A DNA stretch of 64,000 nt, taken from Ilumatobacter sp. (GTDB taxonomy: Bacteria; Actinomycetota; Acidimicrobiia; Acidimicrobiales; Ilumatobacteraceae). Shown piece after piece: positions 51,979-63,496 of this stretch. Location: NCBI RefSeq assembly GCF_046290335.1, contig NZ_JBKAGH010000009.1, forward strand, positions 65,869 through 129,868. Direction: 5' to 3'. Position numbers and translations under genes: made by a program. Every line of letters starts with the position of its first letter. The first letter of the stretch is position 1. Under the pieces are notes generated by a model. It was not told the origin of the DNA, ran no database searches, and was given only the letters and a program-made list of their open reading frames with translations.

Positions 51979-52689
51979 TCAGGGTCGATGCGTCGCTCGG
52001 TACGCGGACGGCGACGTGCCGACGACGCGCCGGAAATGTCGGCCGAAGGCGCTCTGGTCGTAGTAGCCACACGCGTGCGCGACGTCGGCGATCGGGTCCG
52101 ATGTGGTGACCAACAGCTGCAACGCTCGCTCCACACGGAACCGCATGATCAACTGCTTGGGTGTGAGACCCAGCACCCGCCGAGCCGTGCGTTCGAGTTG
52201 TGCGACGGTCATGTCGGCGGCCACGGCCAGATCACTGACGAGGAGTTGCTCCGCGTATCGCCGCCGTGCGACGTCGACGGCCGCCGCGAGCTGCGCGTGG
52301 GGCGCTGCGGCATCGACAGGCGTTCGCAAGTCGATCGACACACTGACGACTCCGACCGGCACCCCGTCGGTATCGGTCCAGCGAGACTTCGACGTCAAGA
52401 ACCACCCGAAGGATCGGTCGGGACGGGTGATCACCTCCAGCTCGTTGGTGAGCATGCGACCGGAGTGCAGTACCTCGTCGTCTTGGCGCTCGTACTGCTC
52501 GGCCAACTCGAACGGAAAGAGTTCGCGGGCGCGGCGCCCGACCACGTCGCCTGGGTGATCGACGCCGGCGCGATCGGCGAACGCCTGGTTGGCCGACAGG
52601 TACCGGCCATCGCTCGACTTGACGCAGAACATGACGTGTGGCGTGGTCGCGAGCACGTCGGTCACCGCCTCGAGCGAGCGATCCAGCAT
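51979..52689 (-). CDS. AraC-family regulator with an N-terminal PAS domain
   Basis: FCVKSSDGRYLSANQAF (PAS); C-terminal IADVAHACGYYDQSAFGRHFRRVVGTSP. Confidence 0.9.
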   Translation of the reverse strand: MLDRSLEAVTDVLATTPHVMFCVKSSDGRYLSANQAFADRAGVDHPGDVVGRRARELFPFELAEQYERQDDEVLHSGRMLTNELEVITRPDRSFGWFLTSKSRWTDTDGVPVGVVSVSIDLRTPVDAAAPHAQLAAAVDVARRRYAEQLLVSDLAVAADMTVAQLERTARRVLGLTPKQLIMRFRVERALQLLVTTSDPIADVAHACGYYDQSAFGRHFRRVVGTSPSAYRATHRP

Positions 52690-52702
52690 CGCACCATCAC
52701 AC

Positions 52703-52793
52703 CACATCGCGGTGCGACATCGCGGTGCGACATCGCCGTGCCACATCGCCGTGCCACATCGCGGTGCCACGTCGTGCTGCCGTATCGCGATGC
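52703..52793. repeat. 13-bp tandem array (5 near-perfect plus 2 degenerate units) in the divergent araC-putA spacer
   Basis: (c/g)acatcgc(g/c)gtgc x5, then cacgtcgtgctgc and cgtatcgcgatgc. Confidence 0.9.
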
Positions 52794-52898: not shown

Positions 52899-55800
52899 AT
52901 GGAGACCGTACCGTCCGAGATCGATCGCGATCACGCCCCCATCTGGTCAGACCACGACCATGACACCGACGCGAAGCTCGCCGACCGCGCCGTCGCGCTC
53001 GCCCGCACACTGCTGGCCGACAGCCTCGAGGACATGTCTCGGTCCGAACGTCGACGACAGGCGCGGCTCGGAGCGCTCCTGGCCGACCCGTCCGGACGAG
53101 AGATGATCTTCGCGCTCACCGATCAGGTCGTGCGGATCGACTCGCCGACCGCTGCGGCGAAGACGTTCGCCGACGTCGTACGGCGTCACCCGACGACCGC
53201 GGTCGGGCGCGTCGACCAGCTCCTGCTTCGCGTCGGCGCACTCGTCGCACCACTGCTCCCGCGTCTCGTGATGCCACTCGTCGTCCGCCGGATCAAGCAC
53301 GAGACGCGCGGCATCGTGCTCCCCGCCCGCGACCCGGCCTTCGCCGACCACGTCGCACAGCGCAGCGAGGAAGGCGTACGGCTCAACGTCAACCCGCTCG
53401 GCGAAGCCATCCTCTCCGATCACGAAGCCGACGAGCGGATGCGGATCGTCTGCGAACGAATCGAGGGCGCCGACGTCGACTACGTGTCGGTGAAGGTCTC
53501 GGCGATCGTCGCCAACCTCGACGCGCTGGCCTTCGAACATTCGCTGGCTCGCATCGAAGACCGGCTGCGCCAGGTGTACCGACGGGCCGAGGCCGCGCAG
53601 CCGCGCACGTTCGTCAACCTCGACATGGAGGAGTATCGCGACCTCGAACTCACGCTCCAGGCGTTCATGCAAGTGCTGAGCGAGCCGGAGTTCCAGGCGA
53701 TCGATGCCGGCATCGTCCTGCAGGCGTACCTCCCCGACTCCCACCAGGCGCTCGAGCGACTCGGCGCGTGGGCGGCGACGCGCCACGAAGCAGGCGGGGG
53801 TTGCGTGAAGGTCCGCCTCGTCAAGGGAGCGAACCTGGCGATGGAGCGCGCCGAGGCCGAACTCCACGGCTGGACGGCCGCGCCCTATCCGACCAAGGCC
53901 GACGTCGATGCGAGCTACAAGGCGATCCTCGACTCGGCGTTGCGTCCCGAGTGGGCTGAGTCGCTGCGGATCGGTCTCGCGAGCCACAACTTGTTCGACG
54001 TCGCCTGGGCGTTGACCATCGGCGCCGAGCGCGACGCGCTCGACCAGCTCCAGTTCGAGATGCTCGAAGGCATGGCACCGGCCCAGGCCCGACAGGTCCA
54101 CGCTCACGCGGGCGACCTGTTGATGTACGCGCCGGTGGTCGACGACGACGACTTCGACGCCAGCATCGCGTATCTCACACGACGCCTCGACGAGAACACA
54201 CAACCGGAGAACTTCCTCCGATCACTCTTCACCCTGACGCCGCACTCCCCGCTGTTCGCCGAGGAGGCCGAACGCTTCAGGCGCAGCGTCGACGAGCGCC
54301 ACTCCGTCGCGACGCGTCGACGCCGCGCTCCGATCTCCCACGATCACCACGACGCCGATCGCGTCGACCCTGCGTCGACGGCGTCCCCGTCGGGGGCATT
54401 TCACAATGCCGCCGACAGCGACGTGACCGACACCGCTGTGCGCTCGGCGATCACGGCCGCCCTCGCCGATCCTCCCCAGCCGGTCGTCGACCGCGTCACC
54501 GCCGAGGCGCGCATCGACGAGATCGTCGCGACCGCAACCGAGTCGTTCGCGTCTGCCGACCACGATCGTGCGACGCGCCGACGCTGGCTGCTCGACGTTG
54601 CCGATCTGATGGAGCGCGAGCGCGCCGCGACGATCGGCCTCATGGCCCACGACGTCGCGAAGACCGCGCACGAGGCCGACCCCGAGGTGAGCGAAGCGAT
54701 CGACTTCTGCCGCTACGACGCCACCGCCGGAAGCGACGCGCTCGATCACGCCGAGGCGAACGGATCTATCGTGACCGGTCGCGGCGTGATCGTCGTCGTC
54801 GGACCCTGGAACTTCCCGTACGCGATCCCGACCGGCGGCGTGGCCGCGGCGATCGCGGCAGGCAACTCGGTGATCCTCAAGCCGGCACCGGAGTCGGTCG
54901 CGACCGGCGCGTGGATCGCCGAGCAGTTCTGGCGTGCCGGCGTGCCTCGCGACGTGCTGCAGCTGGTCGTGTGCGACGACGGCCCGGTGGGCACGCGACT
55001 CGTCACGCATCGCGACGTCGACACCGTCGTGTTGACCGGCTCGTACGACACCGCCTCGATGTTCCTCGATTGGCGGCCTGATCTCCGCCTACTCGCGGAG
55101 ACGAGCGGCAAGGACGCGCTCGTGATCACACCGGCGGCCGATCTCGATCAGGCGATCGCCGACCTCGTGCGCTCCGCATTCGGCCACGCTGGCCAGAAAT
55201 GCTCGGCCGCGAGTCTCGGCATCGTGGTGGGCGAGGTGTACGACAACCCGAGTTTCCAGCGACGGCTCCGTGACGCGGTGACCAGCTTGCGGCTCGGTCC
55301 GGCGACCGACCCGGCGACGATGATGGCACCGCTCGTCCAAGCGCCGACCGGGGCGCTCGAGCGAGCGCTGACGACACTCGAACCCGGCGAGACGTGGCTG
55401 GTCGAGCCCCGTTGTCTCGACGCCGACGGCCGAGCGTGGTCACCGGGGGTGCGTCTCGGGGTGAGCGAGGGGTCGTGGTTCCATCGCACGGAGTGCTTCG
55501 GGCCGGTGCTCGGGTTGATACGCGCCGACGACCTCGATCACGCGATTCGTCTGCAGAACGCCACGGCATTCGGGCTCACCGGCGGGATCCACTCGCTCGA
55601 CGACGCCGAGGTGGCGCAGTGGCTCGCCGCGGTCGAGGTCGGCAACGCCTACGTCAACCGCCACATCACCGGCGCGATCGTGCAGCGCCAGCCGTTCGGC
55701 GGATGGAAGCGGTCATCGGTCGGCGGCGGAGCGAAAGCGGGCGGGCCGGGCTACGTCGCGCAGTTCGCACGCGTCGCCAGCTCCGAGGCAGCGCTCACCG

Positions 55801-56243
55801 ATCTCGACGGTGTCCGCCGCGCCTATCGGACCGCGTGGGCCGACTGGTTCACGCAACAGCACGACCCGTCCGGCTTGGCGGTCGAGTCGAACGTGCTGCG
55901 CTACGTGCCGCTCGACCACGTCGCCGTCCGATGCGCAACGATCGACGCTGTCGCCATCGACGTGCTGAAGGCCGCAGCCGAGATCACCGGTGTCGACGTC
56001 GAGAGTTCGACACCTCAGGAGTCGAGCGACCTCGCATTCGCCGAGCACGTGATCGCGCGCGGCGTCGATCGGGTTCGACTCCTGACAGAGATGTCCGACG
56101 AAGCACGACGTCTCCTCCACCGTGCCGACATCGCCATCGACACGACACCGCCCGTTGCCGACGGCCGACTCGAGCTCCAGCACTGGGTCAAAGAACAGGC
56201 GATCAGCACGACGATGCACCGCCACGGCCGTCTGCTGCACTAG
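52899..56243 (+). CDS. putA: Bifunctional proline dehydrogenase / P5C dehydrogenase
   Basis: NLDMEE, VRLVKGAN, ASHNLFD, RRLDEN; ALDH part PWNFP, ETSGK, AGQKCSA, ECFGP, FGLTGG, QPFGGWK. Start chosen at ATG 52899. Confidence 0.93.
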   Translation: METVPSEIDRDHAPIWSDHDHDTDAKLADRAVALARTLLADSLEDMSRSERRRQARLGALLADPSGREMIFALTDQVVRIDSPTAAAKTFADVVRRHPTTAVGRVDQLLLRVGALVAPLLPRLVMPLVVRRIKHETRGIVLPARDPAFADHVAQRSEEGVRLNVNPLGEAILSDHEADERMRIVCERIEGADVDYVSVKVSAIVANLDALAFEHSLARIEDRLRQVYRRAEAAQPRTFVNLDMEEYRDLELTLQAFMQVLSEPEFQAIDAGIVLQAYLPDSHQALERLGAWAATRHEAGGGCVKVRLVKGANLAMERAEAELHGWTAAPYPTKADVDASYKAILDSALRPEWAESLRIGLASHNLFDVAWALTIGAERDALDQLQFEMLEGMAPAQARQVHAHAGDLLMYAPVVDDDDFDASIAYLTRRLDENTQPENFLRSLFTLTPHSPLFAEEAERFRRSVDERHSVATRRRRAPISHDHHDADRVDPASTASPSGAFHNAADSDVTDTAVRSAITAALADPPQPVVDRVTAEARIDEIVATATESFASADHDRATRRRWLLDVADLMERERAATIGLMAHDVAKTAHEADPEVSEAIDFCRYDATAGSDALDHAEANGSIVTGRGVIVVVGPWNFPYAIPTGGVAAAIAAGNSVILKPAPESVATGAWIAEQFWRAGVPRDVLQLVVCDDGPVGTRLVTHRDVDTVVLTGSYDTASMFLDWRPDLRLLAETSGKDALVITPAADLDQAIADLVRSAFGHAGQKCSAASLGIVVGEVYDNPSFQRRLRDAVTSLRLGPATDPATMMAPLVQAPTGALERALTTLEPGETWLVEPRCLDADGRAWSPGVRLGVSEGSWFHRTECFGPVLGLIRADDLDHAIRLQNATAFGLTGGIHSLDDAEVAQWLAAVEVGNAYVNRHITGAIVQRQPFGGWKRSSVGGGAKAGGPGYVAQFARVASSEAALTDLDGVRRAYRTAWADWFTQQHDPSGLAVESNVLRYVPLDHVAVRCATIDAVAIDVLKAAAEITGVDVESSTPQESSDLAFAEHVIARGVDRVRLLTEMSDEARRLLHRADIAIDTTPPVADGRLELQHWVKEQAISTTMHRHGRLLH

Positions 56244-56273
56244 CGACAGAGTGGGTCAGACCCACTCTGTCGC
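56243..56273. repeat. REP-like palindrome, family B, copy 1
   Basis: GCGACAGAGTGGGTC-A-GACCCACTCTGTCGC; begins on the last base of the putA stop codon. Confidence 0.9.
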
Positions 56274-56281
56274 AGGTGTCG

Positions 56282-56713
56282 TCAGCGCAACACCGAGCGC
56301 AACAGCAGACTCGACTCGGAGTTGATCACCCCATCGCAACTGCGGATGCGCAGCAGCACGTCGTCGAAGTCGCGCAGCGACGCGCACCGGATCTCGGCCA
56401 CCAGGTCCCAACCGCCGTTGGTCGTGTGGAGCGACTGCAATTCCGGCATGCCTCGCAGCTGCTTGATGACCTCGGTCGTGTTGCGGCCCTGCACTTCGAT
56501 CAGCGACACCGCGCGGACGTCGTCGTCGCCGTAGTCCTCACGCACGCGCACGGTGAACCCGAGGACTGCGCCAGACTCGATCAACCGATCGAGGCGGTTG
56601 TTGACCGTTGCACGGGTGACGCCGAGTCGTCGCGCGAGCGTCGTGACGGGCGCTCGCCCATCGGTGCGCAACAGCGCGATCAGTCGCCGGTCGGTGTCAT
56701 CGAGATCGAGCAC
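56282..56713 (-). CDS. Lrp/AsnC family transcriptional regulator
   Basis: LDDTDRRLIALLRTDGR, LGVTRATVNNRLDRL, TNGGWDL. GTG 56713 preferred as start; the track uses 56746. Confidence 0.9.
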   Translation of the reverse strand: MLDLDDTDRRLIALLRTDGRAPVTTLARRLGVTRATVNNRLDRLIESGAVLGFTVRVREDYGDDDVRAVSLIEVQGRNTTEVIKQLRGMPELQSLHTTNGGWDLVAEIRCASLRDFDDVLLRIRSCDGVINSESSLLLRSVLR

Positions 56714-56821
56714 GTTTTGATCATAGTGAGTGTATTGGGTGCACATCTTGCGCTATTTACGCTCACTTTTCTCCCGCTCTGACGATTGAGAGTGCACATC
56801 GATCAGCCGTAGCGTTGGGCC

Positions 56822-57877
56822 ATGGTCCGCTTCGTCAACGTTCATCACCTCGCTCGATGGGTCGCCGACACCGGCATCGAGGCTCTCCTCGTCGACCTCG
56901 TCACCGCGATGGAAGAGGACTTCCGCCGCTGGCCGGAGTTCGACAAGACCCCAAGGGTCGCCAGCCACTCCCGCCACGGTGTCATCGAGTTGATGCCGAC
57001 CAGCGACGGTGTCACGTACGGCTTCAAGTTCGTCAACGGCCACCCGATCAACTCCACCCGCGGGCTGCAGACCGTCACCGCGTTCGGCGCGCTCGCCGAC
57101 GTCGACACCGGCTACCCGCTGATGCTGTCGGAGATGACGTTGCTCACTGCGCTGCGCACGGCGGCGACGTCTGCCATGGCAGCCAAGGTGCTCGCCCCCG
57201 CCGGGGCGTCGACGATGGGCATGATCGGGACCGGCGCGCAGAGCGAGTTCCAGGCGTTGGCGTTCCGAGCGGTGCTCGGCATCGACACGCTGCGGATCTG
57301 GGACGTCGACCCCGCAGCGATGGACAAGTTCGAGCGCAACGCCACGTCGATGGGCTTCGACGTCACCGTGTGCACTGGGCCGGAGCAGGCGGTCGCTGGT
57401 GTCGACGTGATCACCACGTGCACCGCCGACAAGCGCAACGCGACGATCCTGACCGACGAGATGGTCCGAGCCGCCCGGACCGGCCCGAGCGGACTCCGCG
57501 GCTTGCACATCAACGCGATCGGCGGCGACTGCCCCGGCAAGACCGAACTCGAACTCGACCTCGTCAAGCGGGCGACCCTCTTCGTGGAGTACCCCGAGCA
57601 GTCGTTCATCGAAGGCGAGATCCAATTCCTGCCTCGCGACTGGCCGGTCACCGAGCTGTGGCAGGTCCTCACCGGTGATCGCCCTGGCCGCACGTCGACC
57701 GACGAACTCACCGTCTTCGACTCGGTCGGGTTCGCGATCGAGGACTTCTGCGCGCTGCGGTTCCTCAACGATCGACTCACCGGCACCGACTACTTCGACG
57801 AGATCGATCTGATCGCGGAGCCGGCCGATCCGAAGAACCTGTTCGCCCTGCTGCCCGTTCCCGTGGCGGGGGCCTGA
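56822..57877 (+). CDS. ocd: Ornithine cyclodeaminase
   Basis: GVIELMP, YGFKFVNGHP, TALRTAATS, IGTGAQSEFQ, GGDCPGKTE, FDSVGFAIEDF. Confidence 0.92.
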   Translation: MVRFVNVHHLARWVADTGIEALLVDLVTAMEEDFRRWPEFDKTPRVASHSRHGVIELMPTSDGVTYGFKFVNGHPINSTRGLQTVTAFGALADVDTGYPLMLSEMTLLTALRTAATSAMAAKVLAPAGASTMGMIGTGAQSEFQALAFRAVLGIDTLRIWDVDPAAMDKFERNATSMGFDVTVCTGPEQAVAGVDVITTCTADKRNATILTDEMVRAARTGPSGLRGLHINAIGGDCPGKTELELDLVKRATLFVEYPEQSFIEGEIQFLPRDWPVTELWQVLTGDRPGRTSTDELTVFDSVGFAIEDFCALRFLNDRLTGTDYFDEIDLIAEPADPKNLFALLPVPVAGA

Positions 57878-58815
57878 TGGCACTCGCGACCCGCACGAGC
57901 GTCCAGGCGCCGCGCGCGGTCGTGATGATCCGACCGCACCACTTCGAACCCAACGAACAGACACGCGTCGACAACGTCTTCCAGACCGACGCACCGATCG
58001 ACGCGGCGGCGATGACCGTGTCTCGCGACGCGTTCGACGAAGCAACTGCAGTGGCCGACGTCCTGCAGCGACACGGCATCGCGGTGCACCTGTTCGACGA
58101 CGACGGCCACGCCACGCCCGACAGCGTGTTCCCGAACAATTGGTTCTCGACGCACCACGGCGGCCACGTCGCCGTGTTCCCGATGTGCACGCCGAACCGG
58201 CGGCTCGAACGTCGCAGCGATGTCATCGAGATGCTCAAGCAGGCGTACCGGGTGCAGGACGTCATCGACTACTCAGGCTTGGAAGTCGACGGGCTCTTCC
58301 TCGAAGGCACCGGTGCGATGGTGCTCGATCATCTCGATCGAATCGCGTACGTGGCGCGTTCGCATCGAGCCGATCCGATCGTGCTCGAGCGGTTCTGCAC
58401 CAACTTCGGCTACGAACCGATGGCGTTCGACGCCGTCGATCCGGCCGGCATCGCGATCTATCACACGAACGTCTTGATGTGTGTCGCCACCTCGTTCGCG
58501 TTGGTCGGTCTCGACGCCATCGTCGACGCGACCCGACGCGACGAGATCGTGGAGCGACTCGCCGGATCGGGGCGCGACGTCATCGCGCTGCGGCACGATC
58601 AGGTCGCCGATTTCGCTGGCAACGCGTTCGAGCTCACCGGGTCGAGCGGGTCGGTGCTGGCGATGTCGACGCGGGCACGACGAGCGTTGACCACTGAGCA
58701 GATCGAACGCATCGAGGAGTGGTCGACGATCGTCGACGTGGACATTCCCACCATCGAACTCGCCGGCGGATCGGTGCGCTGCATGCTCGCCGGCATCCAC
58801 CTGCAACCGCGCTGA
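57877..58815 (+). CDS. ctlX: Citrulline utilization hydrolase CtlX-like (amidinotransferase fold)
   Basis: VMIRP, VFPNNWFSTH, LEGTGAMVLD, IYHTNV, IELAGGSVRCM; TGATG coupling to ocd. Confidence 0.85.
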   Translation: MALATRTSVQAPRAVVMIRPHHFEPNEQTRVDNVFQTDAPIDAAAMTVSRDAFDEATAVADVLQRHGIAVHLFDDDGHATPDSVFPNNWFSTHHGGHVAVFPMCTPNRRLERRSDVIEMLKQAYRVQDVIDYSGLEVDGLFLEGTGAMVLDHLDRIAYVARSHRADPIVLERFCTNFGYEPMAFDAVDPAGIAIYHTNVLMCVATSFALVGLDAIVDATRRDEIVERLAGSGRDVIALRHDQVADFAGNAFELTGSSGSVLAMSTRARRALTTEQIERIEEWSTIVDVDIPTIELAGGSVRCMLAGIHLQPR

Positions 58816-58851
58816 CCCGCCTCACTGGCCCGGCCGTCGACCCGACTCGAG

Positions 58852-58882
58852 GCGACAGAGTGGGTCTGACCCACTCTGTCGC
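58852..58882. repeat. REP-like palindrome, family B, copy 2
   Basis: GCGACAGAGTGGGTC-T-GACCCACTCTGTCGC. Confidence 0.9.
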
Positions 58883-58918
58883 TTCGCTCGTTTCGACCAG
58901 GCGACCAGCCGCATCATC

Positions 58919-58962
58919 GTTCGCCGACAGTTCACACTTCGGACGCTGCACGTTCATGGCGG
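58919..58962 (+). promoter_or_regulatory. PHO-box-like 11-bp direct repeats upstream of the phosphatase-like gene
   Basis: GTTCGCC (58919), GTTCACA (58930) and GTTCATG (58952) in 11-bp phase. Confidence 0.55.
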
Positions 58963-59003
58963 CGTCGCTTCCGCGACGACTCCGGCTGCTCCGATGAGCC
59001 GTT

Positions 59004-60797
59004 GTGAAACCACGCACCCTCATCATCACCGCCGCAGCGACGTCTGTCGGTCTGCTCGGCGCCAGCCCATTCCTTGGTTCGGCGCAAACCGACGTCGACG
59101 AAGGACTCACGGCGCTCGGCGTCTACGACAGCGGTGATGGCGAAGGAGGATCCGAGATCATCGCATTCGACGCCGTCACCAACCAGATGTTCACGACCAA
59201 CGGTGTCGACAACACGATCGATGTCGTGGACGTCTCCAACCCGGCGGCGCCCACGCTGGTGACGCAGCTCGACATCTCGTCGTATGGCGCCGGTATCCAG
59301 AGCGTGGCGGTCGGCGACGGGCTCGTCGCCGCAGCGGTCGCCAACGCCGACCCCGTGTTGCCGGGTGCCGTCGCCGTCTTCACCACCGCCGGCGCCTTCG
59401 ACCAGGTGTACACGGTGGGCGTGCTGCCCGACTCGATCGCCTTCACGCCTGACGGTCGCTACATCGTCGTCGCCAACGAGGCCGAGCCGGTGTGTGACGG
59501 AACGTCACTCGACGTCGACCCGGCCGGTTCCATCTCGATCATCGACACGCAGAACGACACCGTCGCAACCGCCGACTTCACCGATTTCGACGGCACGGAG
59601 GCGGCGATGCGCGCCGAGAACATCCGTATCTTCTTCCCCGGATCGACGGCCTCGCAGGACCTCGAGCCGGAGTACGTCGCGATCACGCCCGACGGCACCA
59701 CCGCACACGTCACGCTCCAGGAGAACAACGCGATCGCGGTCGTCGACATCGCCACCGCGACCGTGACCGACATCGTGCCGCTCGGCTACAAGGACCATTC
59801 GCTCGACGGCAACGGCCTCGACCCCTCGAACCGCGACAACGCCGAAGCGATCGCGACGTGGAACGTGCTCGGCATGTACCAGCCCGACGCCATCTCGGTG
59901 GTCGACATCGACGGCACCTTGTACACCGTCTCGGCCAACGAAGGCGACGCTCGTGACTACGACTGCTTCTCCGAAGAAGAGCGAGTCGGCGACTTCGGCG
60001 TCGCGCAGCCGCCGTATGCCGCAACCGACGGCGACGACGAGAACCTGGGCCGCCTCCGCACGACGAGTGCGTTCCCGACGACGTTCAACGGTGCCGGTGA
60101 GATCGAGCAGGTCTATTCCTATGGCGCTCGTTCGTTCACGATTCGGGCGCTCGACGGCACGGTCGTGTTCGACAGCGGCGACGACTTCGAGCAGCGTCTG
60201 CTCGGTACCGATTTCTTCAACCTCGACGAACTCGAGACCGACGAACGCAGCGACGACAAGGGCCCCGAGCCCGAGGCGCTCGCCGTCGGTGTGATCGAAG
60301 GGCGCACGTTCGCCTTCATCGGCCTCGAACGGTCGGGGGGCGTGATGATGTACGACATCAGCACGCCGAGCGCACCGGTGTTCATCGACTACCTCAACAC
60401 GGCGGAGACCACCGATCAGGCTCAGAACCTGGTGACCGGCGGTGGAGACGTGTCACCGGAAGGCATCGCGTTCATCAGCGCCGCCGACAGCCCGACCGGG
60501 GTGCCGCTTCTCGCGGTGTCGTTCGAGGTCAGCGGCACGTCTCGGCTGATGCGCGTCGACGTCGCGCCAGCTCCGGTCGACACGACGACCACCACCACGA
60601 CGATGCCAGATGCGACCACCACGATGCCGCCGGCGACTGCGACGCCGACCACCGCCGCCCCGGTCACCACAGCCAACCCGGTGACCGAGTTGCCTGCCAC
60701 CGGTTCGTCCAACTCGAACACGGCGTTGATTGCGCTGCTCCTGTTGTGCGGAGGTGGCGCGGTGCTCATCGCCGCACGCCGTCGCCCGCTCACCTGA
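59004..60797 (+). CDS. Choice-of-anchor I (alkaline-phosphatase-associated beta-propeller) protein with an LPXTG sorting signal
   Basis: Signal peptide; SEIIAFD, VGVLPDSIAFTPDG, ANEAEP, DLEPEY, YQPDAI, ANEGDAR, YGARSF, RSDDKGPEPE, GLERSGG; Thr/Pro linker; LPATG, TM and RRR tail. Confidence 0.88.
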   Translation: MKPRTLIITAAATSVGLLGASPFLGSAQTDVDEGLTALGVYDSGDGEGGSEIIAFDAVTNQMFTTNGVDNTIDVVDVSNPAAPTLVTQLDISSYGAGIQSVAVGDGLVAAAVANADPVLPGAVAVFTTAGAFDQVYTVGVLPDSIAFTPDGRYIVVANEAEPVCDGTSLDVDPAGSISIIDTQNDTVATADFTDFDGTEAAMRAENIRIFFPGSTASQDLEPEYVAITPDGTTAHVTLQENNAIAVVDIATATVTDIVPLGYKDHSLDGNGLDPSNRDNAEAIATWNVLGMYQPDAISVVDIDGTLYTVSANEGDARDYDCFSEEERVGDFGVAQPPYAATDGDDENLGRLRTTSAFPTTFNGAGEIEQVYSYGARSFTIRALDGTVVFDSGDDFEQRLLGTDFFNLDELETDERSDDKGPEPEALAVGVIEGRTFAFIGLERSGGVMMYDISTPSAPVFIDYLNTAETTDQAQNLVTGGGDVSPEGIAFISAADSPTGVPLLAVSFEVSGTSRLMRVDVAPAPVDTTTTTTTMPDATTTMPPATATPTTAAPVTTANPVTELPATGSSNSNTALIALLLLCGGGAVLIAARRRPLT

Positions 60798-60815
60798 GCT
60801 GACCACCGACTCGAA

Positions 60816-60846
60816 GCGACAGAGTGGGTCTGACCCACTCTGTCGC
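60816..60846. repeat. REP-like palindrome, family B, copy 3
   Basis: GCGACAGAGTGGGTC-T-GACCCACTCTGTCGC; shares the 5' flank CCGACTCGAR with copy 2. Confidence 0.9.
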
Positions 60847-60874
60847 TCCATTCGTCGCTTCGTAGAGTGGCGGC

Positions 60875-61663
60875 GTGATCGACAGCGACACGTCCCGCCG
60901 AATCGTGGTGCGTCCACCGAGCCCGAGACTCGCCGACGGAGAGATCAGCTACGTCGATCGTCAACCGGTCGACGTCGCTCTGGCCGAGCAGCAGTGGGCG
61001 CACTACGTCGACGCGTTCCGGACCGCCGGCTGGGACGTCATCGAGGTTCCCGCACTCGACGACCACCCCGATGGTGTGTTCATCGAAGACAACGTCGTCG
61101 TACATCGCGAGCTTGCGATCGTGTGTCGGCCGGGCGCCGAGTCGCGACGCGGCGAGATCGACGCGATCGGCGACCGCTTCAGCGAACTCGGCTACAGCGT
61201 GGCGTCGATCGAGGCGCCGGGCCACCTCGACGGCGGCGACGTGTTGAAGGTCGGTGGCACCGTGTACGTCGGGCGCAGCGCTCGATCCGACGCCGCCGGG
61301 ATCGAGCAGTTCCGTCGGCTGCTCGAAGCCGAAGGAGCGACGGTCGTCGAGGTCCCGGTCACCGCAGCGTTGCATCTCAAGTCGTGCCTGACCGCGCTCC
61401 CCGACGGAACGATCGTCGGCTACGCGCCGCTGGTCGACGAACCGGACGCGTTCGCTCGGTTGTACCTGGCGCCGGAGGAGTCGGGCGCGCACGTCGTCGA
61501 TCTCGGCGACGGCCGGATCCTCGTCGCGTCGAGTTGCCCGACATCAGCCGAGCACTATCGATCGCTCGGCTACGACGTCGTTGCCGTCGACATCAGCGAG
61601 TTCGAGAAACTCGAAGGCTGCGTGACCTGCCTCTCGATCCGCCTCCACGACGGCGTCGACTGA
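60875..61663 (+). CDS. ddah: N(G),N(G)-dimethylarginine dimethylaminohydrolase
   Basis: DGVFIED, SRRGE, HLDGGDV, LHLKS, EFEKLEGCVTCLS (Asp/His/Cys set). Confidence 0.88.
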   Translation: MIDSDTSRRIVVRPPSPRLADGEISYVDRQPVDVALAEQQWAHYVDAFRTAGWDVIEVPALDDHPDGVFIEDNVVVHRELAIVCRPGAESRRGEIDAIGDRFSELGYSVASIEAPGHLDGGDVLKVGGTVYVGRSARSDAAGIEQFRRLLEAEGATVVEVPVTAALHLKSCLTALPDGTIVGYAPLVDEPDAFARLYLAPEESGAHVVDLGDGRILVASSCPTSAEHYRSLGYDVVAVDISEFEKLEGCVTCLSIRLHDGVD

Positions 61664-61711: not shown

Positions 61712-63451
61712 TCAGCTGCGGACGAGGCGGCCTGGTCGCACTCCCGTGAACTCGTCGCGTTCGCGGGTGATCTGGCCGGCCACGATCGTCGCCGTGTAGC
61801 CCTCGGCCGCCTGCAGCAGCCGGGTCCCACCGGCTGGCAGGTCAGCCACCAGCCGAGGCTCGCGTAGCCGGAGGTTGTCGAAGTCGATCACGTTGATGTC
61901 GGCACGCTTGCCCACCGCGAGCACGCCACGGTCGGTGAACCCGAACAGTGCCGCGGTGTCGGCCGTCATCTTCTTGACGACGTGCTCGAGTGAAAGACGC
62001 GGCCCGCGGCTGCGATCACGTACCCAGTGCGTGAGCATCCACGTCGGCGTCGACGCGTCGCAGATGAAGTTGGCGTGTGCGCCGCCGTCGGCGAGTCCGA
62101 GCACGGCGGCCGGGTGCGTCAGCATCTCGTAGAGCGCATCACCGTTGCCGTGTGCGTAACCGAGGAACGGCATCATCATCAGTGCCTCGCCGTCGCGATC
62201 ACGCAGGCGCTCGTACAACTCCTCGATCGGCTCGACGCCGTTGGCCGTGGCTTGCGCCGCGATCGAACGGTCGGGCGTCGGCTCGTAGTCGACCGGATCG
62301 CCCAGCAGGTACTGGCGCTCGTAGGAGTTCACGACCTGGTACGCCATCGGTTGGGTCTCGCGGACGCTCTCCATCACCGCGGTCGACTCGGCGATGAGTC
62401 GGGCCTTGAGGTCGGGGTCACCCATCGCTGCCGCCTGCTCGGCGAACGAGAGATCGCGCAGCGATGCGAAGCTCGGCATGTCCTTGAAGCGATGCTTCGT
62501 CGAGAGCCCGATCAGGATGCCGAAGGGGCGACCGGCGACCTGCGGGATGACCTGGCGCCCGGCGTCTTGCGCCTGCTGCGACAGCTCCATCAGCTCCTTC
62601 CACTCGTCGGGTTCCACCATGTTCTGCAACATCAGCCACGTGACCGGCCGACCGATCTCGTCGGCCAGACGACAGATCCAGTCGACCTCCTTCTTCGGCG
62701 CCACGAGGTCCTCGCCGGCCAGACCTGCAGGCGCCACTTCGAACACGCCCTTGCCGGCGCGCTGCAGCGCCCGGCCGATCGTGAACAGCTCGTCTTCTGC
62801 GGCGAACGTGCCGGGCACTGGGTCACCGTTCATCGCCCGGTGACCGATCGTGCGGCTGGTCGAGAACCCCATCGCGCCCGCTTCGACGGCTTCCTGGACC
62901 AGGGCCGCCATCTGGGCGATGTCATCGGAACTCGCGGGTTCGTTGTCGGCCCCACGCTTGCCCATCACGTAGGTGCGCAGCGGGCCGTGGGCGATCATCG
63001 CTGCGACGTCGGCGGCGTACTCACCGCGGTCGAGTTCGTCGAGATACTCCGGAAAGCTCTCCCAGTTCCACGAGATGCCCTCGCTCAATGCGGCGCCGGG
63101 GATGTCTTCGACGCCTTCCATCAGCTCGATCAGGAACTCGTGCTCGTCGCGCTTGGCCGGAGCGAACCCGACACCACAGTTCCCCATCACCACCGTGGTG
63201 ACGCCGTGCGGGGTCGACGGCTCGAGCTCGCCGTCCCATGTGGCCTGACCGTCGTAGTGCGTGTGGATGTCGACGAAGCCGGGCGTGACGATCTGCCCCG
63301 CAGCGTCGATCTCGCGACGGCCCGGGCCGATGTCGGCGTCCGGCCCGATCCCGGTGATCGTCGAACCGTCGACCGAGATGCTCATGCCGTCGACCGGCGC
63401 AGCGCCGGTTCCGTCGACGATCCGGCCGTTGCGAATCACGAGATCATGCAT
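61712..63451 (-). CDS. N-acyl-D-amino-acid deacylase family amidohydrolase
   Basis: [48 protein letters not shown]. Confidence 0.9.
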
Positions 63452-63496
63452 CGACACATCCTCGCGCAGCGTCGGAGCTGCCCTACGAGTCAACGC

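What the first reader, a model, noticed from the sequence alone, without database searches (positions are those of the whole stretch)
52899..61663. Complete methylarginine-to-glutamate route in one neighbourhood: DDAH, CtlX, Ocd, PutA
Seen: putA, lrp, ocd-ctlX (coupled) and ddah within about 9 kb, with all four enzyme genes on the plus strand. Known: DDAH converts methylarginines to citrulline plus (di)methylamine; CtlX-type proteins are proposed citrullinases; Ocd makes proline from ornithine; PutA makes glutamate. Inference: a pathway for scavenging methylated arginine from eukaryotic protein decay, without arginase or arginine deiminase genes in the window.
Basis: partly seen in the sequence, partly recalled or inferred. 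Interest (0 to 1): 0.62.

Follow-up and report, generated by a model that had tools for sequence, protein, structure and literature searches.

The report
Loose DDAH–citrullinase–Ocd–PutA gene neighbourhood

Summary
Observation confirmed. The window holds putA (52899-56243), lrp (56282-56746, minus), ocd (56822-57877) overlapping ctlX (57877-58815) by 1 nt, and a Streptomyces-type ddah (60875-61663). Family scores are above curated cut-offs and the active-site motifs are intact.

Nor did it mention three copies of a genome-wide 31-bp palindrome, one after each unit.

lrp-ocd-ctlX is the published citrulline-utilisation cassette (Price 2022): lrp lies beside 62 and ocd beside 61 of 80 ctlX loci. 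ddah is a lone, vertically inherited gene in this family (44/151 genomes; no ocd, ctlX or putA near it in 20 loci from other genera).

Within the genus the two modules come and go independently: two genomes have both, one has ddah only, two have the cassette only. Of about 50 genomes with both genes, only 4 have them adjacent, and those represent 2 independent events.

Three results keep the idea alive:
- Two Mesorhizobium-family genomes carry tight ocd-ctlX-ddah operons with an amino-acid ABC transporter.
- The two genes co-occur more often than expected (pooled OR about 4, not corrected for phylogeny).
- This genome has no arginase and no canonical arginine deiminase.

Interpretation partly supported. 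Interest is modest.

The parts
51979..52770 (-). PAS + AraC-type transcriptional regulator, divergent from putA. Likely the regulator of putA.
   Evidence: Pfam HTH_18 83.9 bits and PAS_4 62.9 bits. Found beside putA in genus-mates G137, G078 and G110.
52899..56243 (+). Bifunctional proline dehydrogenase / P5C dehydrogenase (PutA-like). The only copy in the genome.
   Evidence: Pro_dh 195.9 bits and Aldedh 302 bits. NCBIfam PutA models match but fall below cut-off (374.6 against 747). ATG at 52899. Single copy.
56243..56273 (.). 31-bp REP-like perfect palindrome between the convergent putA and lrp stops.
   Evidence: The family has 105 copies genome-wide.
56282..56746 (-). Lrp/AsnC regulator, divergent from ocd-ctlX.
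   Evidence: AsnC_trans_reg 57 bits and HTH_AsnC 51 bits. A homologue (41-80% identity) lies beside ctlX in 62 of 80 loci.
56739..56800 (+). Two exact GTGCACATC repeats (56739-56747 and 56792-56800) in the lrp-ocd control region. Putative Lrp operator. A TAGCGT -10-like hexamer lies 7 nt before the ocd ATG.
   Evidence: only 3 exact copies in 64 kb, two of them here, none upstream of ddah or putA. TGCACAT-like repeats are conserved in the same region of G137, G078, G110 and L009. The operator role is inferred.
56822..57877 (+). Ornithine cyclodeaminase (Ocd).
   Evidence: NF005762 equivalog 516.5 bits against cut-off 350. PF02423 382.7 bits.
57877..58815 (+). CtlX, putative citrullinase, translationally coupled to ocd (TGATG overlap).
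   Evidence: NF046062 405.3 bits against cut-off 334. FPNN and HTN motifs and the GGSVRCM cysteine are present (against Price 2022). Overlap shown.
58852..58882 (.). Second copy of the 31-bp palindrome, 36 nt after the ctlX stop.
59004..60797 (+). Choice-of-anchor-I beta-propeller surface protein with an LPXTG anchor. Not part of the pathway.
   Evidence: NF038117 534.3 bits against cut-off 300, PF22494 357.6 bits, and Gram_pos_anchor/LPXTG. Present beside ctlX only in G000 and G110.
60816..60846 (.). Third copy of the palindrome, 18 nt after the surface-protein stop and 28 nt before the ddah GTG.
60875..61663 (+). Streptomyces-type dimethylarginine dimethylaminohydrolase (DDAH). It is probably its own transcription unit: a TAGAGT -10-like hexamer lies 6 nt before the GTG.
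   Evidence: NF045660 372.1 bits against cut-off 340. Alignment to P. aeruginosa DDAH structures (3rhy, 1h70; E 3e-38) conserves D60, E65, D66, R85, R132, H162 and C249, with Glu114 replaced by Asp. The promoter reading is inferred.
61712..63493 (-). Amidohydrolase_3 family protein, convergent with ddah. A syntenic flank, not assigned to the pathway.
   Evidence: PF07969 175.7 bits. It flanks the variable region in four of the five genus genomes (G000, G028, G078, G110) and was not found in the stretch fetched for G137.

Best explanation
The stretch is a junction of three separately controlled catabolic units.

1. **putA with a divergent PAS/AraC regulator.** It converts proline to glutamate and is the only putA in the genome.
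2. **The lrp-controlled, translationally coupled ocd-ctlX cassette.** This is a widespread module already described for citrulline/ornithine use: citrulline to ornithine by the putative citrullinase CtlX, then ornithine to proline by Ocd. Its distribution (one genus in this family) suggests an ancestor of this Ilumatobacter-type genus gained it.
3. **A stand-alone Streptomyces-type ddah.** It is inherited vertically in this family. It lies 2 kb downstream, behind an unrelated LPXTG surface-protein gene.

The genome has no arginase and no canonical arginine deiminase. Citrulline released by DDAH from free methylarginines can therefore enter CtlX, Ocd and PutA to give glutamate plus ammonia. The same citrulline can equally be recycled to arginine by ArgG/ArgH.

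The route is metabolically feasible and probably carries flux when methylarginines are available. It is an opportunistic meeting of modules in a variable chromosomal region, not a dedicated operon.

**Shown:** gene identities, motifs, gene order, phyletic patterns.
**Inferred:** enzyme substrates, transcription units, flux.
For: **Gene identities and motifs**
- Family scores and motifs.
- ocd-ctlX overlap.

**The cassette is conserved without ddah**
- In 80 diverse ctlX loci, lrp is adjacent in 62, ocd in 61 and ddah in 1.
- The ctlX-ocd adjacency and the proposed citrullinase role are published.

**ddah stands alone in the family**
- DDAH occurs in 44 of 151 genomes (20 of 61 genera). CtlX occurs in 4 of 151, all in one genus.
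- Twenty DDAH loci from 13 other genera have no ocd, ctlX, putA or lrp within 9.5 kb and no conserved neighbour.
- The DDAH tree places the three genus copies together inside the family radiation.
- The CtlX genus clade has 98% support among other Actinomycetota.

**Independent presence and absence in the genus**
- G000 and G137 have both modules, G028 has ddah only, G078 and G110 have the cassette only. All lie in the same thiolase-to-amidohydrolase region. The spacer genes differ between genomes.

**Separate units in the window**
- One palindrome follows each unit.
- The GTGCACATC repeats occur only at the lrp-ocd promoter.

**Whole-genome context**
- No arginase and no canonical arginine deiminase.
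- argG is present at 473 bits.

**Hints of a real metabolic link**
- ocd-ctlX-ddah operons in G194 and G481.
- Pooled co-occurrence OR 4.1.
- Two independent adjacency events against 0.09-0.22 expected.
Against: - Read-through from ctlX through the surface-protein gene into ddah cannot be excluded. All three genes are on the same strand with short gaps, and the palindromes have no T-tail.
- In both genus genomes that carry both modules, the modules are neighbours. This could reflect selection and not shared ancestry.
- The co-occurrence statistics are not corrected for phylogeny or genome size.
- CtlX has never been assayed.
- A third enzyme of the same superfamily (guanidino-group-modifying, GME), at C7:72.1-73.1 kb, has ADI-like TRD/HLD motifs. 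It could be the real citrulline source.
Confidence: 0.55

Rival explanations
1. ddah, ctlX, ocd and putA form one dedicated, co-induced pathway. It scavenges methylarginines from decaying eukaryotic protein and takes them to glutamate.
For: - Same strand and short gaps.
- The genome's only copies of all four genes lie within 8.8 kb.
- No arginase and no canonical arginine deiminase in the genome.
- The linkage recurs in G137.
- It recurs independently as tight operons in the Mesorhizobium family: lrp | ocd-ctlX-ddah-ABC transporter in G481, and ABC-arginase-ocd-ctlX-ddah in Mesorhizobium sp. B2-7-2.
- Pooled co-occurrence OR 4.1, CMH p = 2e-4.
Against: - An unrelated LPXTG gene and palindromes lie between ctlX and ddah.
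- No shared operator motif.
- Independent gain and loss within the genus.
- ddah lies near ctlX in 1 of 80 ctlX loci, in 0 of 26 Microbacteriaceae-type genomes with both genes and in 0 of 20 DDAH loci from other genera of the family.
- No transporter lies near the cluster.
Confidence: 0.2
2. The DDAH-like enzyme acts on arginine or another guanidino compound, not on methylarginines. Mycobacterium tuberculosis Rv2323c is the model: it is annotated as a DDAH but is required for growth on arginine in a genome without arginase. The neighbourhood would then be an arginine-to-glutamate route.
For: - Hampel et al. 2015 (PMC4569260): Rv2323c is homologous to S. coelicolor DDAH and is needed for arginine use. 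M. tuberculosis has no arginase.
- The window's genome also lacks arginase and canonical arginine deiminase.
- In Mesorhizobium sp. B2-7-2 the ddah-like gene shares an operon with arginase and a Lys/Arg/Orn-type ABC transporter.
Against: - The window protein passes the Streptomyces-type DDAH equivalog cut-off but scores only 70 bits against the M. tuberculosis-type model, whose cut-off is 300.
- It has the DDAH signature (IED and HLK), not the two-aspartate ADI signature (TRD and HLD) used for unsubstituted guanidines. All P. aeruginosa DDAH binding residues are conserved.
- A separate ADI-like protein with TRD/HLD motifs exists elsewhere in the genome.
Confidence: 0.12
3. The adjacency is chance within a variable region and carries no meaningful flux. 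DDAH only detoxifies or salvages methylarginine. ArgG/ArgH recycle its citrulline to arginine. The cassette serves external citrulline, ornithine and proline.
For: - argG is present.
- DDAH occurs without CtlX in 42 of 44 DDAH-bearing family genomes and in 90 of 116 DDAH-bearing Microbacteriaceae-type genomes.
- In Microbacteriaceae ddah sits in a housekeeping purN/purH neighbourhood.
- The region is variable, with different spacer genes in G000 and G137.
Against: - Two independent adjacency events against 0.09-0.22 expected by chance, and positive co-occurrence in all three families tested.
- Tight ocd-ctlX-ddah operons exist elsewhere.
- Once CtlX is expressed, nothing would keep DDAH-derived citrulline away from it.
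Confidence: 0.13

Closest known systems
CtlX-Ocd citrulline utilisation cassette (Price et al. 2022, PLoS Genet, PMC9007349)
   Same: CtlX is above the NCBIfam equivalog cut-off and has the FPNN/HTN asparagine signature. It lies directly beside ocd (here overlapping it). The proposed chemistry is the same: citrulline to ornithine to proline.
   Different: - Here the cassette sits beside putA, as also in L009, a near-identical relative of genus-mate G078. True putA is adjacent in only 2 of 80 loci.
- A ddah lies 2 kb downstream.
- The divergent Lrp regulator (62 of 80 loci) was not mentioned in the passages of that paper read here.
- CtlX activity is still not shown biochemically.
Pseudomonas aeruginosa DdaH (PA1195) with its regulator DdaR, for methylarginine metabolism (Lundgren et al. 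2017, J Bacteriol). Known here only from its title, as cited in PMC8657755. The full text is not held.
   Same: A bacterial DDAH used to metabolise methylarginines. The window enzyme aligns with P. aeruginosa DDAH structures at E 3e-38, with the catalytic and binding residues conserved.
   Different: - The window enzyme is the Streptomyces type (NF045660), not the Pseudomonas type (NF045658: 173 bits against a cut-off of 450).
- No sigma-54 enhancer-binding regulator lies beside it.
- Its neighbour here is a citrulline-consuming cassette.
Mycobacterium tuberculosis Rv2323c arginine-utilisation cluster (Hampel et al. 2015, PMC4569260)
   Same: An actinobacterial DDAH-family gene in a genome without arginase, tied to arginine, ornithine and proline metabolism.
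   Different: - The M. tuberculosis-type model matches the window protein only weakly (70 bits against a cut-off of 300).
- From my own knowledge, not checked here: the M. tuberculosis gene lies in an arginine-induced cluster with rocD and rocE. The window gene stands alone beside ocd-ctlX.
Mesorhizobium-family ocd-ctlX-ddah operons found here (L078/G194, L160/G481)
   Same: The same three enzyme families and the same Lrp-type regulator (66% identical in G481).
   Different: - There the three genes are contiguous (10-30 nt gaps) and joined to a polar-amino-acid ABC transporter, with arginase as well in L078.
- Their ddah-like proteins are only 32-33% identical to the window's and fall below both DDAH cut-offs (202 against 450; 138 against 340).
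- The window's arrangement is interrupted and has no transporter.

Membership tests
CtlX (NF046062, citrulline utilisation hydrolase) | Whole-protein score above the curated equivalog cut-off | tested here: met
   405.3 bits against cut-off 334.
CtlX (NF046062, citrulline utilisation hydrolase) | Substrate-binding aspartates replaced by asparagines (FPNN and HTN), with the catalytic cysteine retained | tested here: met
   SVFPNNWF, IYHTNVLM and GGSVRCM are present. The criterion comes from Price 2022.
CtlX (NF046062, citrulline utilisation hydrolase) | Encoded beside ocd or aruFG | tested here: met
   1-nt overlap with ocd. ocd is adjacent in 61 of 80 loci.
CtlX (NF046062, citrulline utilisation hydrolase) | Hydrolyses citrulline to ornithine | not testable with these tools
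   The activity has not been shown biochemically for any family member. No later report was found.
DDAH (EC 3.5.3.18; NF045660 Streptomyces type) | Whole-protein score above the curated equivalog cut-off | tested here: met
   372.1 bits against cut-off 340, a narrow margin. Family-mates in other genera score 380-430 bits.
DDAH (EC 3.5.3.18; NF045660 Streptomyces type) | Cys-His-Glu/Asp catalytic triad and the substrate-binding residues of P. aeruginosa DDAH | tested here: met
   Alignment to 3rhy and 1h70 conserves C249, H162, D60, E65, D66, R85 and R132, with Glu114 replaced by Asp. An Asp at this triad position in mammalian DDAH1 is from my own knowledge.
DDAH (EC 3.5.3.18; NF045660 Streptomyces type) | Hydrolyses ADMA/NMMA but not arginine | not testable with these tools
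   Only the HLK/IED signature (not HLD/TRD) points that way. The Rv2323c precedent calls for caution.
Ornithine cyclodeaminase (NF005762) | Score above the equivalog cut-off | tested here: met
   516.5 bits against cut-off 350.
PutA (bifunctional PRODH/P5CDH) | Proline dehydrogenase and aldehyde dehydrogenase domains in one polypeptide | tested here: met
   Pro_dh at residues 237-528 and Aldedh at 623-1045.
PutA (bifunctional PRODH/P5CDH) | Score above the NCBIfam PutA equivalog cut-off | tested here: not met
   NF008869 scores 374.6 bits against cut-off 747. I therefore file it as PutA-like by domain architecture, not as a member of the enterobacterial equivalog.
Dedicated catabolic operon (one pathway, one regulon) | Gene linkage conserved across genomes that carry the genes | tested here: not met
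   ddah and ctlX are adjacent in 4 of about 50 genomes that carry both, representing 2 independent events.
Dedicated catabolic operon (one pathway, one regulon) | Shared operator or promoter signals | tested here: not met
   The GTGCACATC repeats occur only in the lrp-ocd region, not upstream of ddah or putA.
Dedicated catabolic operon (one pathway, one regulon) | Co-transcription or co-induction | not testable with these tools

The most novel reading that the evidence does not exclude
DDAH, CtlX and Ocd form a bacterial catabolic pathway for methylated (or otherwise N-substituted) arginine that I did not find described in the papers searched. A transporter takes up the substrate. DDAH releases citrulline, CtlX gives ornithine, Ocd gives proline and PutA gives glutamate. 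The pathway is encoded as a tight Lrp-controlled operon with an ABC transporter in some Rhizobiales, and as a looser cluster in this Ilumatobacter-type actinobacterium. If so, it would also give the still unproven citrullinase CtlX a defined physiological source of citrulline.
Probability: 0.3. Interest if true: 0.5.

Novelty: new variant of a known kind. Interest (0 to 1): 0.35.

Why it matters
Free methylarginines are released wherever eukaryotic protein decays. How bacteria use them beyond the DDAH step is barely studied.

A DDAH-CtlX-Ocd-PutA route would be an arginase-independent and ADI-independent way to draw nitrogen and carbon from them. It would also give the unassayed CtlX family a natural role.

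The practical result here is narrower:
- The window's cluster is a weak example.
- The contiguous ocd-ctlX-ddah-ABC operons found in the Mesorhizobium family are much better test systems.
- The Pfam model DDAH_eukar scores CtlX far higher than the true DDAH, which can mislead automatic annotation.

Tried and rejected
1. **The 31-bp palindromes as a cluster-specific regulatory site.** Rejected. There are 105 copies genome-wide and none in the syntenic loci of genus-mates.
2. **Conserved neighbours of DDAH that might reveal its function.**
   - Own family: none found in 20 loci. My first crude GC3-based gene caller failed on several loci, so I replaced it with all-ORF clustering.
   - Microbacteriaceae: the conserved neighbours are purN, purH, DUF6350 and an ABC exporter. 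This is housekeeping synteny, not catabolism.
3. **A transporter near the cluster.** None found. No basic-amino-acid ABC genes lie near it on contig C9.
4. **Genes between ddah and ctlX in G137.** A BTAD-domain regulator and an unknown ORF, not a transporter.
5. **Canonical terminators or sigma-70 promoters at 56-62 kb.** None beyond chance.
6. **Solved structures for CtlX by sequence.** None.
8. **Full text of Lundgren 2017 on DdaR/DdaH.** Not held.
9. **Literature linking DDAH with Ocd or CtlX.** Nothing relevant.
10. **Recent cross-phylum transfer of ctlX.** I considered this because ctlX is 60-67% identical to proteobacterial copies. The tree instead nests the genus clade among Actinomycetota. 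CtlX is simply slow-evolving.

Full report
**1. What is there**

Two results fit that label: the closest external ctlX locus is labelled Acidimicrobiales, and the taxonomic family contains many small-genome MAGs.

ORF listing plus Pfam and NCBIfam scans give this gene order:

| Coordinates | Strand | Gene | Evidence |
|---|---|---|---|
| 51979-52770 | - | PAS/AraC regulator | HTH_18 83.9 bits, PAS_4 62.9 bits |
| 52899-56243 | + | PutA-like | Pro_dh plus Aldedh; ATG confirmed |
| 56282-56746 | - | Lrp/AsnC regulator | AsnC_trans_reg, HTH_AsnC |
| 56822-57877 | + | Ocd | NF005762 516.5 against 350 |
| 57877-58815 | + | CtlX | NF046062 405.3 against 334 |
| 59004-60797 | + | choice-of-anchor-I / LPXTG surface protein | NF038117 534.3 against 300 |
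| 60875-61663 | + | DDAH, Streptomyces type | NF045660 372.1 against 340 |
| 61712-63493 | - | Amidohydrolase_3 protein | PF07969 175.7 bits |

- The ocd stop and the ctlX start overlap as TGATG.
- CtlX carries the FPNN and HTN signatures that Price et al. use to separate it from guanidine-acting relatives. It also keeps the C-terminal catalytic cysteine.
- DDAH aligns with the P. aeruginosa DDAH crystal-structure sequences at E 3e-38. Asp60, Glu65, Asp66, Arg85, Arg132, His162 and Cys249 are conserved, and Glu114 is replaced by Asp.

**2. Transcription-unit anatomy**

A perfect 31-bp palindrome, GCGACAGAGTGGGTC(A/T)GACCCACTCTGTCGC, lies directly after putA, after ctlX and after the surface-protein gene.
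- An earlier first-reader note described it as confined to this cluster. It is not. The genome holds 105 copies, often in pairs, and it is absent from the syntenic loci of four genus-mates.
- It is a REP-like element, locally enriched here: 3 copies in 4.6 kb against 0.09 expected. It marks the gene boundaries.
- No canonical terminators or sigma-70 promoters were found.

The lrp-ocd intergenic region holds two exact GTGCACATC repeats 53 nt apart.
- TGCACAT-like repeats recur at the same place in G137, G078, G110 and L009.
- Only three exact copies exist in the whole 64-kb window, and none lies upstream of ddah or putA.
- I read these repeats as the Lrp operator. This is an inference.

ddah has only 28 nt between the palindrome and its GTG. 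That stretch contains a TAGAGT hexamer 6 nt before the start. ocd shows a similar arrangement, with TAGCGT 7 nt before the ATG. This fits leaderless, independently started transcripts (inference).

**3. The cassette is known and widely conserved without ddah**

Price et al. 2022 defined CtlX from fitness data, noted its adjacency to ocd or aruFG, and proposed that it hydrolyses citrulline to ornithine. They stated that biochemical proof is lacking.

A pattern scan of species-representative genomes returned more than 590 ctlX loci. I examined the best 80, each with 10-kb flanks where the contig allowed:

| Neighbour of ctlX | Loci out of 80 |
|---|---|
| Lrp homologue | 62 |
| ocd | 61 |
| true putA | 2 |
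| ddah homologue | 1 |

One of the two putA cases is L009, an Acidimicrobiales MAG with the same putA-lrp-ocd-ctlX block at 67-80% identity.

**4. ddah is a lone, vertically inherited gene in this lineage**

- In 151 genomes of the window's family, DDAH occurs in 44 (20 of 61 genera). CtlX occurs in 4, all in the window's genus.
- Twenty DDAH loci from 13 other genera have no ocd, ctlX, putA or lrp within 9.5 kb. They also share no conserved neighbour.
- In a DDAH tree, the three genus copies group together (93/74 support) inside the family radiation.
- In a CtlX tree, the genus copies plus L009 form a 98%-supported clade among other Actinomycetota.
- Because CtlX is confined to one genus of the family, the cassette looks like the newcomer. 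It lies in a variable region between a thiolase/beta-lactamase-like pair and the amidohydrolase.

Module content of the five genus genomes in that region:

| Genome | Cassette (putA-lrp-ocd-ctlX) | ddah |
|---|---|---|
| G000 (window) | yes | yes |
| G137 | yes | yes |
| G028 | no | yes |
| G078 | yes | no |
| G110 | yes | no |

The genes between ddah and ctlX differ: the surface protein in G000, a BTAD-domain regulator in G137.

**5. Linkage and co-occurrence elsewhere**

| Genome set | CtlX present | DDAH present | Both | Adjacent (within 10 kb) |
|---|---|---|---|---|
| Own family (151) | 4 | 44 | 2 | 2 |
| 50 ctlX-bearing genomes | 50 | 24 | 24 | 1 |
| Microbacteriaceae-type family (201) | 31 | 116 | 26 | 0 (closest pair 64 kb) |
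| Mesorhizobium family (151) | 11 | 22 (ddah-like) | 4 | 2 |

- In Microbacteriaceae, ddah sits beside purN, purH and an ABC exporter.
- After removing overlaps between sets, about 50 genomes carry both genes. Four have them adjacent. These represent two independent events: this genus and the Mesorhizobium family.
- Chance predicts about 0.09-0.22 such events, giving P of 0.004-0.02 (a rough Poisson estimate).
- Presence of the two genes is positively associated in all three families (OR 2.5, 4.6, 3.9). The Mantel-Haenszel pooled OR is 4.1, with CMH p = 2e-4.
- These figures are not corrected for phylogeny or genome size.

**6. The better examples are in Rhizobiales**

- Mesorhizobium sp. B2-7-2 (L078) encodes a Lys/Arg/Orn-type ABC transporter, arginase, ocd, ctlX and a ddah-like gene in one same-strand run of genes.
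- G481 (L160) has lrp divergent from ocd-ctlX-ddah, followed by a substrate-binding protein, two permeases and an ATPase.
- G426 (L161) has lrp-ddah-ABC, with ctlX 2 Mb away.
- Seven of the 22 ddah-like genes in that family are tied to polar-amino-acid ABC genes: six abut them directly, and in L078 the transporter lies upstream of arginase in the same gene run.
- These proteins keep the catalytic residues but fall below both DDAH cut-offs. Their substrate is therefore open.
- They show that a DDAH-type enzyme feeding CtlX and Ocd is a selectable arrangement.

**7. Whole-genome context of the window**

- putA, ocd, ctlX and ddah are each single-copy.
- There is no canonical arginine deiminase. 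The only arginase-fold protein is agmatinase-like and below cut-offs.
- argG is present, so citrulline from DDAH can also be recycled to arginine.
- A third member of the same enzyme superfamily (guanidino-group-modifying enzymes, GME) lies at C7:72.1-73.1 kb (333 aa). It carries ADI-like TRD and HLD motifs and a catalytic cysteine. It could supply citrulline or ornithine from arginine.
- No basic-amino-acid transporter lies near the cluster.

**8. Interpretation**

The most economical reading is a modular junction:
- putA with its PAS/AraC regulator;
- the Lrp-controlled ocd-ctlX cassette;
- a separate ddah.

Together they make the conversion of methylarginine to glutamate feasible in a genome with few other sources of citrulline. 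They are not inherited or, as far as sequence shows, regulated as one unit. I give this reading 0.55.

Rivals:
- An arginine-acting DDAH-like enzyme on the model of M. tuberculosis Rv2323c (Hampel 2015): 0.12. The DDAH-type IED/HLK signature and the weak match to the M. tuberculosis-type model count against it.
- Pure coincidence with citrulline recycled through ArgG/ArgH: 0.13.

**9. Novelty and score**

- The ocd-ctlX cassette is published.
- Bacterial DDAH use of methylarginines is published for P. aeruginosa. I know that paper only from its title, as cited.
- No paper in the searched library links DDAH with CtlX or Ocd.

The window is thus a loosely linked new variant of known modules. The genuinely interesting material is the contiguous Rhizobiales operons. 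Interest 0.35.

Noticed in passing
window 56243-56273, 58852-58882, 60816-60846; genome-wide in G000: A REP-like 31-bp perfect palindrome, GCGACAGAGTGGGTC(A/T)GACCCACTCTGTCGC. The genome holds 105 copies at up to 4 mismatches, often in pairs about 55 nt apart. They cluster in some regions, for example 8 copies in C2:518.9-533.2 kb and 7 in C3:762.8-780.5 kb. It is absent from the syntenic loci of four genus-mates, so the family looks strain- or species-specific.
   Followed up: partly
G000:C7:72125-73126 (locus L002:1222-2223): A third member of the guanidino-group-modifying enzyme (GME) superfamily: a 333-aa protein with ADI-like TRD and HLD motifs and a catalytic cysteine. It scores below the cut-offs of every named NCBIfam family. 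The genome has no canonical arginine deiminase or arginase, so this is a candidate small arginine deiminase or dihydrolase.
   Followed up: partly
L160 (G481:C2:518500-538400), L078 4627-11803, L161 (G426:C1:16500-36400): Mesorhizobium-family operons:
- lrp | ocd-ctlX-ddah-SBP-permease-permease-ATPase (G481)
- ABC transporter-arginase-ocd-ctlX-ddah (Mesorhizobium sp. B2-7-2)
- lrp-ddah-ABC transporter (G426)

These are much tighter versions of the proposed pathway and better systems for testing it.
   Followed up: partly
window 57877-58815 and 60875-61663: The Pfam model PF19420, 'DDAH_eukar', scores CtlX at 310.8 bits but the true DDAH at only 24.4 bits. Pfam-based annotation will therefore tend to label CtlX as a dimethylarginine dimethylaminohydrolase.
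   Followed up: no
window 56739-56800; same region of L004, L006, L007, L009: Conserved GTGCACATC / TGCACAT repeats lie in the lrp-ocd intergenic region and are a putative Lrp operator. A TA(G/C)(C/G)GT hexamer lies 6-7 nt before the ocd ATG in G000, G137 and G110, which suggests leaderless transcripts. G078 and L009 have a longer 5' leader.
   Followed up: partly
window 59004-60797: A choice-of-anchor-I beta-propeller protein with an LPXTG sortase signal, in an organism other notes place in Acidimicrobiia. It is syntenic beside ctlX only in G000 and G110. Its function is unknown.
   Followed up: no
L148-L159 (Microbacteriaceae-type genomes): In 10 of 12 genomes sampled, the Streptomyces-type ddah lies in a conserved neighbourhood with purN, purH, a DUF6350 protein and a fused ABC exporter. 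This is housekeeping synteny with no arginine or ornithine genes.
   Followed up: partly
L004 7891-11019 (G137): A gene for a BTAD-domain (SARP/AfsR-like) regulator of about 1040 aa occupies the space between ddah and ctlX in genus-mate G137. In the window that space holds the surface-protein gene.
   Followed up: no
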